Below are positions 22,777-28,457 of a stretch of 64,000 bases of DNA, piece by piece. Positions within the stretch are counted from its first letter, which is position 1, and each line of letters opens with the position of its first letter. The DNA lies in assembly GCA_012295275.1 (NCBI GenBank), contig CM022677.1, positions 19,344,001 to 19,408,000 of the forward strand, given 5' to 3'. The DNA is from Chrysomallon squamiferum. Lineage: Eukaryota > Animalia > Mollusca. The notes under the pieces are model-generated. The model had not been told where the DNA came from and made no database searches. It worked only from the letters and a program-made list of their open reading frames with translations. A program made the position numbers and the translations under genes.

Positions 22777-25700
22777 ATGGCGACACAGAGATCGGTAGGT
22801 TATTTTTTTTTTTTTTTGGTTTATTGTATACGCCCATTTTAATACGCATTGCTGCTTCTACTAGTAATAATACTAATTCTTGTAAAAATTATTACTAGTT
22901 CTGCTACTACGAAAAGTCTGTCTCTCTGTGACTATAACTGCCTAACTACCTATATATATACCTACCTACCTATCTTTCTATCTGTCATCTGTGTATCTAT
23001 CTACCTATCTATCTACCTACCTACCTACCTATCTCTGTCTGTCTATGTATCTACCTACCTACCTACCTACCTGTCTTTCTTTCTGTCATATGTGTATCTA
23101 TCTGCCTATCTACCTGTCTATCTATATACCTACCTACCTATCTATCTCTGTCTGTCTGTCTATGTATCTACCTACCTACCTACCTGTCTTTCTTTCTTTC
23201 TGTCATATGTGTATCTATCTGCCTATCTACCTATCTATCTATATACCTACCTACCTATCTATCTCTGTCTGTCTGTCTATGTATCTACCTACCTACCTAC
23301 CTATCTATCTATTATATACCTACCTACCTACCTACCTATCTATCTATCTATCTATTATATACCTACCTACTTACCTATCTATCTATCTATCTATCTATCT
23401 ATCTATCTATCTGTGTCTGTCTGTCTGTCTATCTATCTATCTATCTATCTGTCTATCTTCTATCTACCTGTCTGTTTGTCTGTCTGTCTGTCTCTCTATC
23501 TATCTATCTATCTATCTGTCTGTCTGTCTGTCTGTCTGTCTGTCTGTCTGTCTATCTATCTATCTATCCATCCATCTATATAATCTGCCTATCTACCTAA
23601 CAACGACTCAGTCTCTGTCTGTCTATCTGTCTGCCCACCTGTCTATCTGTCTGTCTGTCTGTCTGTCTGTCTGTCTACCTATCTACCTACGTATCTATCT
23701 CTGTATGTGTATATCTATCTTTCTACCTACCTACTACATTATATATATTACCTGCCTAGCTCTCTGTCTTTCTAGGTACCTAGGCAGGCAGGTAGACAGG
23801 TAAGTAGGTAGTCGACAAGTAAGCACACACCTACACATGCACACATACATAGAACTGAAACATACACCACGCAGTTGAACTACAGTTGTTATCTCCCTTA
23901 AACATGTCTGTCACAGTCTAAATACTGTCCAAAGGAAAAAAAAAAAAACTAACTGTCGGTTAACGCTACAGTTTCAAACAACATTTAGTAAGCTCTTCCT
24001 CGTCTTATTGTTACTACTACTACTGTTACTATCATTATTATTATTATTATTATTATTATTATTATTATTATTATTATTATTATTATTATTATTATTATTA
24101 TTAATTAGTTCTTTTTCTCTCTTTTTCTTCACATATGTAGAAAAAGAAAAGAGAAAAAAAATCTTTTGGCTCAAAACGGCTACACCCAAAATGTAAACTC
24201 AGGGCAGGCAAACATATAATTATTTTTATATACAGTGTGTACGTGTGTGTGTGTGTGTGTCTGTTTGTTCCTCCTTCAAAATATATTTAAAAAAGAAGTA
24301 AACGGAATAAAAAATAGACTTTCTTAACATTTTTCTTTCGTAATTAATTAAATAAATAAATAAATAAATAAAAATAGACTGTCTTAAGATTTTTCTTTCA
24401 TAATTAAATAAATAAATAAATAAATAAATAAATAAAAAAAATAGACGCATAATAATACACGAAAGCGATATAATTATTTTCGTAATCGTATTTTCTTCAG
24501 TTACTGGTTAGGTGAAATGTTAGTATCTGCGTCTATATATGAACATTTTCATTGTGATGATGATAATGATGATGTTGATGATGATGATGATGATATTTAC
24601 TGTTATTATTATTAACAGTAGTAGTAGTAGTAGTAGTAGTTGTAAAGTTCAATATTAGTGGTGATAACATCAGAAGCAGTAGTTGTAATAGTAGAAGTAG
24701 TAGTAGTGGTAGTGGTAGTAGTAGTAGTAGTAGTAGTAGTAGTAGTAGTAGTAGTAGTAGTAGTAGTAGTAGTAGTAGCAGCAGCATCAGCTATAATAAT
24801 AGCTGTATCAGTAAGGCTGCTACATTTAGAGACAGTAGTTTTATTAATATTACTAGTGTTGTCAAAATTTATTTGTTTGTTTCTTTGGTTGTTTGTGTAT
24901 TTTTAGTTTTTTTTTTTTTTTTTTTATATATTTATTTAATTGGTTTGTTTGTGGGGTTTTCTCCTGGGTTTTTTTTTTTTTGTAGTTCTTTTTTGTTTTT
25001 GTTTAGCTGTTTATGTATTTATTTGCTTGTTTCTTTGTCTATTCATTCATTCATTCATTCTCAGATGTCGGTGTACAAATCAACGCCATTACGATTTTCG
25101 AGCGTGCACGGGCAAAATGTGGAGCAGACGAACAGTCGGACTGGGTCCTCTTGGAAACTGTCCCAACATTTGGGTGTATGTAGCACAAACAGACCTATTT
25201 TAAAAGGAGAAAATATTGAGATACACCTTTGTGGGAGTGGTCACGTGTATGTAGGTCTTCTGAAAAAGAAACCGGATCAAAAAGACATTTTAGAAGGAAA
25301 GATGCCGGAGAGGAAAATGGGAGACAACTGGATATACTTCCGGTTAAAGGATAATAATTACGTAGTTTCGCTGGAGAAAACGTCTTCGAAGGAAGTTAAG
25401 TTTCGTTCGGAACATGACGACAAACCGCAGCTGTTTAAAATAGATGACTGCTGGTTGTGCTGCCATCTGGTGTTTGGCAATGTTGAGGCAAAGATTGTAA
25501 AAAAAGGTGACTGAAATATTAACCCTTTCTCTCTCTCTCTCTCTCTCTCTCTCTCTCTCTCTCTCTCTCTCTCTCTCTCTCTCTCTCTCTCTCTCTCTCT
25601 CTCTCTCTCTCTCTCTCTCTCTCTCTCTCTCTCTCTCCGTCTCTCCTCTCTCTGTCTGTGTGTATTTACATCAGTGCATCTCTTTCTGTCACGCTCTAAG

Positions 25701-28457
25701 TATATGAGGATATTGTATCGTCTTTATCCATGGGTTCACAGTAGTAACAATGACTGTAGTGTAACAATATTTCTCAAAGTAATGGCAGACATAGTTGTAA
25801 TGGTGGTAGCACTAGCAGTAGTACTAACGGTGGTAGTCGTAGTAATTATAACTGAAACTACTTTATAAATTTCTTTCTTTCTTTCTTTCTTTCTTTCTTT
25901 ATTTACTTATTTATTTATTTTATTTTATTTTATTTTTTTAAATTTTACATTAGATGATAAAAAGTCCGTTGTAAAGAAATCAGGAGTGCTCTGTTTTGAT
26001 TCGGTCTGCGGTCCAAATGTGAACATTTCCGCCGACGCGACTACAGCCAAACTGAAAAATACCAACCCTGGCGCCCTCTGCTGTACGGACAGACCCGTCA
26101 CACAAGGGGAGGTAATCGAAGTCAAGATACAATCGGTAGAAGATGCGAGGTGGACATGGGTTCGTGTGTATATAAGTAATTCCAGGTAACTGCATTATTC
26201 TGTAGTAGTAGCAGCAGTAATACTAATATCAGTAGTAGTGATAGTGTACTAATAGTAGTCGCTGTTGCTGTTGTTGCAGCAGTAGCATCAGTAGTAGTAG
26301 GAGTAGCAATAGTAATAATGGTAGTTGTGGTAATAATAGAGATCCTAATACACAGTAGTAGTGAAGTTAGTAGTAGTTGTTGTTGTTGTATTTGTACTAG
26401 TAGTAGTTACAGTAGTAGCTGTAGCAGAAGTGCCAATAATACCAGTAGCAGTAGTAGTACTTGTAGTAGTAGTAGTAGATGTAGTGCTGGCAGTTTGCTA
26501 TATTTTTTAATTCCACGTCTTTCTTTTCCATGCTCAGCGCGCGGGAGTTAAAAATAGATCATTCTGACGTCATGCCGTCAGAAGTCGACGGATTGTTTTT
26601 CTTGACAATCTTGAAAAATACGCAAGCAACATTGATCCTACGTATCAGAAATGACGATCAAATAGCTTACACAAGTCGGGGGGAGGAGAAAGTATGCGCT
26701 GTTACTGGAGTCGACCTCTCGAGGCCCGTTTACGTTTACTTCGATCTCTTCCGGGTCACGTTATCCCTGACCTCAGTGATTCGTTCAATAGACGACGGTA
26801 AGTAACAACAACAGTAACAACAACAACAACAACAACAACAACAATAATAATAATAATAATAATAATAGTAATAATAATAATGAAAACAACGCCTAAAAAG
26901 TAAGAGGTAGTCGTTGTAGTAGTAGTAGTAGTAGTAGTAGTAGTAGTAGTAGTAGTAGTAGTAGTAGTAGTAGTAGTAGTAGTAGTATTTCATTAAAACA
27001 ATTTTTACATTGACAGTTTCTTTTTCCCTTTCTCTGAAAATGTTTTTCCAGTCTTTGCTATTCTATTCTCTCTCTCACTGTCTCTCTCTGTCTCTGTCTC
27101 TCTCACACACACACATAGACTCGCACACATATACTCCTTCGTCCCTGTATCACATAAACACATACACACTCATACTATATATATATATATGTATGCGGAT
27201 TTCTGAAAGAGCCTACATCTCTCTCTCTCTCTCTCTCTCTCTCTCTCTCTCTCTCTCTCTCTCTCTCTCTCTCTCTCTCTCTCTCTCTCTCTCTCTCTCT
27301 CTCTCTCTCTCTCTCTCTCTCTCTCTCTCTCTCTCTCTCTCTCTCTCTCATAACGAACATTAAGAAAAGAAAACGATTACTGTTCGTTTTCGATTAGCAG
27401 AAAATGATCTTTTATGCACACCTTCCCATGGATTTGAAAATACCGCGACAGTAGTCTTAATATATTTTACATTTTTGTTTCTCCAGTGGTCGACTACCCA
27501 AAAATAGGCGACGTCTCTCCTGATGTCGCAGATGGATGCGAGTATGCAACACCAGAACCTAACGACGACATCGAAGCTGAGAACGATGGATACATAACCC
27601 CTGTTTGCGACCCTAAGATTACCACCAACGACAACGATGATGGCGACGAAGGATATTTAACTCCTGTTGCGCCAAAAAGGAAAGACGATTCTGTTGTAAA
27701 ATCTACCAAAGCTGGTGGAGCGTCGAAACCCAATATTGCTAATACTGGTCACGATCCGTCGCTAAATTCCACCGAAAGTAACGAAGCACCGAAGTCCTCT
27801 TATGCTAACGTTGGTTACAATTCTTCGTCAAATTCCACCACAAATCCTATCACTCCACCAGCCGCTGAATTATATCCTGAGAACGTGCATGGTGAAGCAG
27901 GCGCGGCCAGTGGACCCACCCAAGAAGCTGGTGTCGCTGTCAGCGATTTATGCAGCCAGATAGAAGGTATACGGCAGACTTTGCGACACCCGTCAAGAAA
28001 CGACCCTTGCTATGGCGTGCTGCTGAAGGACATAAGAAAAAGACTAGAAAGCATCGAGAAAGCTTCATCGACCAGTCAAGAAATTCTTCATACGGTTAAA
28101 AGCCTCGAGCTTCAAGTTACCGAGCTTTTATCAGATGTAACCGTTACGTCACAACCGAAACCAATCCCCGATAACGTAACCCCGCCCACTGCCGAGATTT
28201 TTGACAACTTCATCAAACCAAATTTCACGCGTTTCTTGAGTGAGATGGACGCTGACGCTGTTACTGATTATCTTTTCCAGTATGACGTCATAACTGAGGA
28301 GGTCATGTATAAACTACAGTCAATGGACAAAGAGAAAAAACGTGAAAAGAACCGTCAGATTTTGCACATCATCAAAACAAAATCTCAGAAAATGGATTCG
28401 TTCAAAGAAGCTCTCAAAGAATCGGGTAACCAGGACTTGGCTGATCTACTCAAATAA
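22777..28457 (+). CDS. Two Neuralized-homology repeats (NHR) + Tyr-motif linker + coiled coil + C-terminal CARD-like death fold, ~640 aa (copy 1, intact)
   Basis: Exons 22777-22794 (MATQRS), 25065-25506, 25954-26185, 26538-26797, 27487-28457; GT-AG with matching phases 0,1,2,1. NHR motifs: PLRFSSVHGQNV...GVCSTNRPILKGE, and LCFDSVCGPNV...ALCCTDRPVTQGE...GVDLSRPVYVYFDLF. The C-terminal ~85 aa (FIKPNFTRFLSEMDADAVTDYLFQYDVITEE...REKNRQILHII...FKEALKESGNQDLADLLK*) follow the CARD pattern. Confidence 0.85.
22940..23760. repeat. Compound tetranucleotide microsatellite (TACC/TATC/TGTC)n, representative of many (CT)n, (ATT)n, (GTA)n, (CA)n and (ATTT)n tracts in the window
   Basis: Seen directly; it produces the spurious YLPT/YLSI ORFs. 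Confidence 0.95.

What the first reader, a model, noticed from the sequence alone, without database searches (positions are those of the whole stretch)
22777..28457. Unusual architecture: Neuralized repeats coupled to a phosphotyrosine-motif linker and a CARD instead of a RING
Seen: two divergent NHR domains; an acidic linker with DYPKI, EYATP, DGYITPV, EGYLTPV, SYANV and LYPEN; a heptad-like segment (LLKDIRKRLESIEK...LELQVTEL); and a terminal CARD-like domain. There is no RING or SOCS box. Known: NHRs are peptide-binding modules (Neuralized binds Delta and Bearded motifs), normally linked to ubiquitin-ligase domains; acidic YxxP and YxN motifs dock Crk/Nck-type and Grb2-type SH2 domains; CARDs nucleate caspase and immune complexes. 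I know of no described NHR+CARD protein. Inference: a lineage-specific sensor/adaptor linking NHR ligand recognition and Tyr-kinase signalling to death-fold assembly.
Basis: partly seen in the sequence, partly recalled or inferred. Interest (0 to 1): 0.82.

Follow-up and report, generated by a model that had tools for sequence, protein, structure and literature searches.

The report
Mollusc Neuralized–CARD signalling adaptor family
This gene, likely from a snail and spliced in RNA across its four main exons, joins two Neuralized-type binding domains through a tyrosine-rich linker and a predicted coiled coil to a CARD cell-death domain, a layout shared by unstudied genes in snails and clams that likely work as adaptors clustering CARDs to start immune or cell-death signalling.

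Summary
The architecture is real: NHR–NHR–tyrosine linker–helices–CARD, in a stop-free GT-AG gene model of 640 aa, or 634 aa from the better-supported second ATG. Pfam finds Neuralized and CARD, predicted folds agree, and RNA contigs splice exons 2→3→4→5, so the CARD exon is not a separate gene. It is not a one-lineage oddity. Homologues occur in vent snails, abalone, limpets, a whelk, mussels and clams, all unannotated; 8 of 11 full-length hits end in a CARD. New here: a coiled-coil trimer motif (RhxxhE) before the CARD in several members, enrichment of SH2-type tyrosine contexts (strong only in gastropods), and a second tandem copy carrying a frameshift and spliced to a neighbouring G-patch gene exon in one RNA contig. 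Best reading: a cytosolic adaptor that binds a ligand with its NHRs and clusters CARDs. No ligand, partner, phosphorylation or immune role was shown. Six paper searches found no NHR+CARD protein, although pairing SPRY-like folds with death folds is known. Verdict: new variant of a known kind, interest 0.5.

The parts
22777..22794 (+).
   Evidence: GT donor, in frame; no RNA contig on the duplicate of this exon; homologues start at the next Met
25065..25506 (+). Exon 2: likely start codon and NHR domain 1
   Evidence: Pfam PF07177 E 5e-5; 59% identical to G. aegis P0001 NHR1; spliced to exon 3 in RNA contigs laid on copy 2
25954..26185 (+). Exon 3: N-terminal half of NHR domain 2
   Evidence: Pfam PF07177 E 1.7e-8; RNA joins on both sides
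26538..26797 (+). Exon 4: C-terminal half of NHR domain 2
   Evidence: Pfam PF07177 E 0.021, profile 95-140; RNA join to exon 5 in runs X1 and X3
27487..27923 (+). Exon 5, acidic, predicted disordered linker with Y321 (YPKI), Y337 (YATP), Y353 (YITP), Y374 (YLTP), Y423 (YANV), Y447 (YPEN)
   Evidence: Sequence; pLDDT under 50 in the homologue model at 313-391; permutation test
27927..28139 (+). Exon 5, two predicted helices; the long one carries the R-h-x-x-h-E trimer motif (RLESIE, 28041-28058)
   Evidence: AlphaFold helices 2-20 and 30-72 of the 177-aa model, pLDDT about 58-73; motif scan; motif definition PMC3653964
28185..28457 (+). Exon 5, C-terminal CARD and stop codon
   Evidence: Pfam PF00619 E 2.4e-11; six helices, pLDDT 84-96; top structural rows are CARDs, Z up to 13.4
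34866..39975 (+). Second tandem copy (exons 34866-34883, 36668-37109, 37566-37795, 38145-38404, 39005-39975); 2-nt deletion in exon 3 ends the frame after 161 aa as assembled
   Evidence: tblastn and blastn; exon bounds; truncation; contigs of X1, X2 and X5 carry two more bases at that site
30361..33831 (+). Duplicated 5' exons of the neighbouring G-patch gene; its exon ending at 33831 is joined to NHR exon 2 in one RNA contig
   Evidence: Pfam G-patch E 6.9e-8 at 31037-31114; loose end of a 59-nt X2 contig located
22441..46386 (+). Tandem duplication of about 12 kb (22441 to about 34550; 34552 to about 46386) holding the NHR-CARD gene and the front of the G-patch gene
   Evidence: Self-blastn

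Best explanation
This is a spliced member of an unstudied mollusc-wide gene family with two Neuralized (NHR) domains, a tyrosine-rich linker, a predicted coiled coil and a C-terminal CARD, and it likely works as a cytosolic adaptor that turns ligand binding into CARD clustering for immune or cell-death signalling. Shown: exon structure, splicing, domain identity, predicted folds and family range. Inferred steps: (1) the tandem NHR beta-sandwiches bind a protein motif, probably not the Delta/Bearded NxxN peptide; (2) the helix with the R-h-x-x-h-E motif would trimerise the protein and hold three CARDs together; (3) further clustering on the ligand would let these CARDs nucleate a helical CARD-CARD assembly with an initiator caspase or CARD adaptor; (4) in gastropod members, tyrosine kinases would phosphorylate the acidic Y-[LI]-x-P sites and recruit SH2 adaptors of the Crk type, as a tunable side input that varies between species and copies.
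For: Architecture. Folds: best match of the homologue model is Drosophila Neuralized NHR1, Z 16.3, rmsd 2.8, 150 aligned; the window's own C-terminus matches CARDs at Z 8.4-13.4 in rows 1-32. One transcript: X1 contig 6 runs from exon 4 through the stop codon, X2 contig 10 joins exons 2-3-4. Conservation: 8 of 11 full-length hits have a CARD; NHR1, NHR2 and CARD are 59, 57 and 51% identical to G. aegis against 42 and 39% for linker and helices; pN/pS 0.37 in NHR1 for an RNA variant. Trimer motif in 5 of 11 linkers against 0.24 expected. Tyr+3 hydrophobic 32 of 56 against 15 expected, Y[LI]xP 7 against 0.5. Precedent: CARDs signal by helical oligomerisation and some need a helper oligomerising domain (PMC11874512, section 8); SPRY-like domains, Neuralized included, are coupled to death folds in immunity (PMC8195603, passage); vertebrate NHR ligases act in antiviral signalling (PMC13623101 abstract).
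Against: No ligand, partner, phosphorylation or induction data. The tyrosine signal falls to p 0.04 (Tyr+3 hydrophobic) and p 0.22 (Y[LI]xP) once the window protein, P0001 and the repeat-rich Nucella protein are dropped; Mytilus P0011 has no linker tyrosine; the window's motifs look like internal repeats of one unit, so they are not independent; motifs were chosen after seeing them. Shuffling destroys helical periodicity, so the trimer-motif p-value is inflated; one of the 5 hits contains a proline; P0001 has K for R; three CARD-bearing members (P0003, P0007, P0012) lack even the loose motif, and the motif also occurs in some dimers. NHR1 shows no excess of amino-acid change overall (pN/pS 0.37), which a fast-evolving pathogen sensor might show. 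3 of 11 full-length relatives have no CARD.
Confidence: 0.5

Rival explanations
1. It is an inhibitor: the CARD caps or sequesters an initiator caspase or CARD adaptor, as CARD-only decoys do, and the NHRs and tyrosines only place it at a receptor or release it.
For: No catalytic, NTPase or ligase domain. ARC and ICEBERG CARDs are among the structural matches; their inhibitory role is recalled.
Against: A trimer-type helix next to the CARD suits nucleation better than capping. The structural matches do not single out inhibitory CARDs: rows within 1 Z unit mix MDA5, Apaf-1 and caspase-9.
Confidence: 0.2
2. It is a developmental or cytoskeletal docking protein: a tyrosine-kinase substrate of the p130Cas/Dok type that recruits Crk through YxxP repeats, with the CARD linking it to developmental apoptosis or engulfment rather than to immunity.
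For: Three YxxP sites in the window protein; Crk SH2 recognition of phospho-YxxP is pre-metazoan (PMC5043372, passages); transcripts occur in four RNA samples.
Against: YxxP motifs are few or absent in bivalve members and the linker does not align across the family, whereas NHRs and CARD do; no SH3 or PH/PTB domain.
Confidence: 0.15
3. It is a RING-less Neuralized-type regulator: the NHRs bind Notch ligands or other NxxN-type clients and the protein competes with, or recruits, a ubiquitin ligase, the CARD serving as a generic interaction module.
For: Closest fold is Drosophila Neuralized NHR1; Neuralized binds Delta's NxxN motif through NHR1 and has a ubiquitylation-independent activity (PMC5675594, passages); two tandem NHRs as in Neuralized.
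Against: Only 16% identity to Drosophila NHR1; the WNGG stretch of that domain aligns with non-glycine residues in the family's NHR2, and a glycine there is recalled as essential for Delta binding; the Atlas keeps this family in its own mollusc cluster, apart from Neuralized-RING clusters.
Confidence: 0.1

Closest known systems
Neuralized / NEURL1 / NEURL3 E3 ligases (NHR + C-terminal RING)
   Same: Two N-terminal NHR domains with the same fold
   Different: CARD instead of RING; acidic tyrosine linker and trimer-motif helix; 16% identity to Drosophila NHR1
SPRY-like domain + death-fold proteins of innate immunity (PMC8195603 passage; Pyrin/TRIM20 recalled as the example)
   Same: Beta-sandwich binding domain, coiled coil and death-fold domain in one chain; the NHR fold also matches TRIM PRYSPRY domains at Z 11-13
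   Different: Order reversed (binding domains first, CARD last); tandem NHR rather than PRYSPRY; no RING or B-box; the paper's Fig. 2J could not be seen, so an NHR+CARD drawing there is not excluded
Invertebrate NHR-Roc-COR-Death-TIR proteins ('neuralized PATS1'; PMC9334734 Fig. 6 legend, PMC5094078 and PMC4769524 passages)
   Same: NHR and a death-fold domain in one mollusc protein
   Different: No GTPase, COR or TIR domain here; CARD rather than Death domain; about 430-870 aa
CARD9 / CARMA coiled-coil CARD scaffolds and UPA-CARD of NLRP1/CARD8 (PMC11874512, section 8 and passages)
   Same: A CARD next to an oligomerising element that would drive filament nucleation
   Different: CARD is C-terminal to a short helix, the input module is NHR, and no BCL10 or caspase partner is shown

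Membership tests
Neuralized/NEURL E3 ligases | One or more NHR domains | tested here: met
   Pfam PF07177 on exons 2-4; fold match to 4kg0, Z 16.3
Neuralized/NEURL E3 ligases | C-terminal RING (or SOCS box in NEURL2) | tested here: not met
   No Pfam RING or SOCS hit in 5 window pieces or 22 hits; C3HC4 pattern absent in 11 of 11; RNA runs through the CARD to the stop
Neuralized/NEURL E3 ligases | Binding of NxxN motifs in Delta/Bearded | not testable with these tools
   Only indirect: the glycine pair of Drosophila NHR1 is not kept in the family's NHR2; its role is recalled
CARD domain family | Sequence profile above the curated cut-off | tested here: met
   43.9 bits against 23.9
CARD domain family | Six-helix death fold closest to CARDs | tested here: met
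   Six helices at pLDDT 84-96; rows 1-32 (Z 8.4-13.4) are CARD proteins or a CARD-like design, FADD death domain Z 7.7
CARD domain family | Homotypic CARD-CARD assembly | not tested
   The complex-prediction queue was full; no job ran
NHR-ROCO-TIR proteins | Roc-COR GTPase and TIR domains | tested here: not met
   No such Pfam hit; the transcript ends after the CARD
TRIM / Pyrin-type sensors | RING or PYD plus B-box before a coiled coil and PRYSPRY | tested here: not met
   No B-box, RING, PYD or SPRY Pfam hit; only fold-level likeness of NHR to SPRY
p130Cas-type SH2 docking proteins | N-terminal SH3, many YxxP motifs and FAT-like domain (PMC5043372) | tested here: not met
   3 YxxP motifs, no SH3 or FAT hit
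Parallel trimeric short coiled coils | R-h-x-x-h-E motif within an amphipathic helix | tested here: inconclusive
   Motif and long helix present; the motif does not guarantee a trimer; oligomer state not modelled

The most novel reading that the evidence does not exclude
Molluscs have their own class of cytosolic immune sensors in which tandem NHR domains recognise microbial or damage-exposed proteins, tyrosine phosphorylation licenses the response, and a trimeric coiled coil launches a CARD filament, filling the place of the inflammasome or MAVS-type adaptors that some gastropods are reported to lack; CARD-less paralogues would act as decoys.
Probability: 0.25. Interest if true: 0.8.

Novelty: new variant of a known kind. 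Interest (0 to 1): 0.5.

Why it matters
How molluscs wire pathogen detection to caspases is poorly known: Aplysia is reported to lack MAVS and RIPKs and to have few NLRs (PMC9334734, passages). A family present in both gastropods and bivalves, including farmed abalone, mussels and clams, that joins a binding module to a CARD is a direct candidate for that missing link, and it would give NHR domains a role outside ubiquitin ligation. It can be tested in haemocytes or cell lines with ordinary assays.

Tried and rejected
Mis-joined exons or a separate CARD gene: rejected by RNA joins. Pseudogene for copy 1: rejected (open frame, pN/pS 0.37). Larger fusion: no protein of 565-2000 aa matched exon 5 (a weak test, and it missed known 566-aa P0001). 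Positive selection on NHR1: not found overall; the same codons (68, 94, 96) change differently in different RNA variants, but this was not tested. Word-based homologue searches were insensitive (3 hits, 4), so family size is a lower bound. No whole genome is held, so paralogues outside the window were not counted; no relative in JGI metagenome contigs; no viral scan ran. Oligomer prediction of helix+CARD: the queue was full, no result. Atlas search of the C-terminus gave only sub-0.8 CARD clusters. The tree has no outgroup and five long branches; its 'noCARD' grouping is uninformative because ungrouped rows are not counted. The bacterial promoter scan does not apply to this genome. One search's chimeric-frame figure used an exon end one base off; one search gives the corrected one. 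Supplement searches found no 'Neuralized' in 12 of 13 files of PMC8195603 or 4 files of PMC9334734.
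Full report
Observation. The window is AT-rich, microsatellite-laden animal DNA. Five exons with GT-AG introns join into a 640-codon open frame. Pfam gives Neuralized on exon 2 (E 5e-5, just above cut-off), on exon 3 (E 1.7e-8, profile 1-51) and weakly on exon 4 (E 0.021, profile 95-140), and CARD at the end of exon 5 (E 2.4e-11). 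No RING or SOCS hit appeared.

Folds. An AlphaFold model of the window's last 177 residues has a short helix, a 43-residue helix (pLDDT about 58-73) and six helices at pLDDT 84-96. Against 48,161 PDB representatives, rows 1-32 (Z 8.4-13.4) are CARD proteins or a CARD-like design; MDA5, Apaf-1 and caspase-9 lie within about 1 Z unit, so no subtype can be named. Foldseek agreed but with no E-value under 0.001. The joined window protein could not be folded, so the closest homologue P0001 stood in: two beta domains, a low-confidence linker (313-391), three helices and a CARD. Its best match is Drosophila Neuralized NHR1 (Foldseek E 3.9e-6; Z 16.3, rmsd 2.8, 150 aligned, 16% identity), ahead of TRIM SPRY domains (Z 11-13).

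Transcription. Five runs hold the stretch: four RNA runs from one study and one of unrecorded kind. Reads were laid on the second copy, whose exons are about 97.5-99% identical to the first. Contigs join exon 2 to 3 (X1, X2), 3 to 4 (X2) and 4 to 5 (X1, X3); X1 contig 6 runs from exon 4 through the stop codon. These are assembled contigs, so they show splicing but not level, strand or tissue. P0001 and P0002 begin at the Met of exon 2, so 634 aa from 25065 is the likelier product.

Family. An exhaustive search with NHR1 gave 22 hits: 11 full-length tandem-NHR proteins, 7 NHR fragments, one canonical-type NHR protein (P0015; recalled as NEURL2-like) and 3 unrelated repeat proteins. Of the 11, 6 hit Pfam CARD at E under 0.05, 4 of them above cut-off; two more (P0011, P0012) scored 47.7 and 21.2 bits with leave-one-out family profiles against at most 2.8 for 200 shuffles each; 3 have no CARD (Haliotis P0004, Patella P0016, Nucella P0021). 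Sources name Gigantopelta aegis (two paralogues), Haliotis, Lottia, Patella, Nucella, Mytilus, Mya and Mercenaria; the names are 'uncharacterized', 'hypothetical' or single-domain labels. The ESM Atlas puts P0001 nearest a 59-member cluster, commonest phylum Mollusca, with Neuralized on 66% and CARD on 25% of members; this may be its own cluster. In a 13-row tree of the NHR region the window protein is sister to G. aegis P0001 (93/98) and bivalves form one group (100/99); there is no outgroup. The organism is therefore likely a related snail.

Linker. I shuffled the linkers of 11 proteins 10,000 times (P0054, P0045, P0055, P0056 left out as close to included rows, P0004 as nearly linker-less). 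Of 56 tyrosines, 32 have a hydrophobic residue or proline at +3 (15 expected), 32 have an acidic residue just upstream (18.6 expected) and 7 are Y[LI]xP (0.5 expected); p about 1e-4 to 2e-4. A D/N/G-Y-L-T-P motif recurs in the window, G. aegis, P0045 and Nucella. Without the window protein, P0001 and Nucella the figures are 11 of 26 against 6.6 (p 0.04) and 1 against 0.24 (p 0.22); Mytilus P0011 has none. The tyrosine block is also where the two tandem copies differ most: 16 of 162 nt against 13 of 1506 elsewhere in exons 2, 4 and 5 (Fisher p 7e-10), with 11 amino-acid changes; copy 2 loses YATP and gains a second YPKI. So the motifs are a variable, mainly gastropod feature. Phospho-YxxP is the Crk SH2 consensus and is ancient (PMC5043372, passages); the Grb2 YxN assignment is recalled.

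Helix. The long helix carries RLESIE, matching the R-h-x-x-h-E trimerisation motif (PMC3653964, passages). The strict motif occurs in 5 of 11 linkers against 0.24 expected, and in P0045, P0054, P0055 and P0056. Caveats: shuffles remove heptad periodicity, one hit has a proline, three CARD-bearing members lack it, and the paper notes the motif in some dimers. The oligomer could not be modelled because the queue was full.

Tandem copy. About 12 kb is duplicated head to tail. Copy 2 has a 2-nt deletion in exon 3 that ends the frame after 161 aa; contigs of X1, X2 and X5 have two more bases there, so it may be a null allele or an assembly error. X3 contigs match copy 2 with 0-1 differences in four pieces and join its exons 4 and 5. 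X1 carries a third variant: of 24 exon-5 differences taken from the 40 of 101 rows shown, 13 match copy 1 and 11 match neither, including five amino-acid changes clustered in or at the CARD's middle helices and nearby; in exon 2 it differs from copy 1 with pS 0.09 and pN/pS 0.37. The duplicated unit includes the front of a G-patch gene (Pfam E 6.9e-8; GPATCH4-like by recall). One 59-nt X2 contig, depth 4.3, joins that gene's exon ending at 33831 exactly to NHR exon 2. The G-patch frame stops 46 codons later, and the NHR frame has a stop upstream of its ATG, so no fusion protein results. This join supports a real duplication, but a circular RNA from a single-copy locus would give the same join, and the copies differ little enough (introns 0.3-3.8%) to be two haplotypes assembled in tandem. 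I put a real duplication at about 0.65.

Mechanism. The protein has no enzyme domain, so it is an adaptor. Most likely the NHR pair binds a protein motif, the helix pre-assembles a trimer, and clustered CARDs seed an assembly with a caspase or CARD adaptor, as CARDs generally do, some with help from an adjacent oligomerising domain (PMC11874512, section 8 part 1); tyrosine phosphorylation would add an SH2 input in gastropods. All four steps are inferred. An inhibitory decoy, a developmental docking protein and a RING-less Notch regulator remain possible.

Literature. Six full-text searches found no paper describing an NHR+CARD protein; most subscription journals, including much shellfish immunology, are outside the library. 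PMC8195603 (passages; 12 of 13 supplements searched; Fig. 2J not visible) states that SPRY-like domains, Neuralized included, are coupled to Death, Pyrin and CARD domains. PMC9334734 (passages, 4 supplements searched), PMC5094078 and PMC4769524 (passages) show NHR in ROCO/TIR/Death proteins of molluscs. PMC5675594 (passages) gives the NxxN binding of Neuralized; PMC13623101 (abstract) and PMC12166272 (search listing) place NHR ligases in antiviral signalling. The design principle is known; this architecture and family appear undescribed.

Verdict. Real, expressed, conserved across molluscs, uncharacterised: a new variant of the binding-module plus death-fold adaptor. Interest 0.5; 0.8 if it proves to be a kinase-gated immune sensor (probability about 0.25).

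Noticed in passing
window 33745-33831 joined to 36668: One RNA contig splices a G-patch gene exon to NHR exon 2, so copy 2 may be transcribed from the duplicated promoter of its neighbour; a circular RNA is the alternative.
   Followed up: partly
window 41884-48950 (+): Apparently complete G-patch gene (GPATCH4-like by recall) with a long lysine-rich last exon; only its front half is duplicated.
   Followed up: partly
window 39728-39901 (CARD of copy 2) in run X1: An RNA variant has clustered amino-acid changes in the CARD (Q582E, E588A, Y592D, K593E, also F559C, S617P) found in neither genomic copy; only part of the difference table was shown.
   Followed up: partly
proteins P0004, P0016, P0021: CARD-less relatives: a short 333-345 aa NHR-NHR form kept in several Haliotis species (possible decoy), and a Nucella protein with 16 linker tyrosines including repeated YLTP motifs.
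   Followed up: partly
window 16853-19934 (-): Exons of an O-methyltransferase gene (Pfam Methyltransf_3, best E 2.3e-7) lie upstream, head to head with the NHR-CARD gene.
   Followed up: no
window 14442-16006 (+): Two exons of a Hint module (hedgehog-like; E 5e-7 and 8e-9).
   Followed up: no
window 56039-56194 (+): First exon of a G-protein alpha subunit gene (Pfam E 0.0014, below cut-off).
   Followed up: no
window 11738-12643: Tandem minisatellite array with diverged copies.
   Followed up: no
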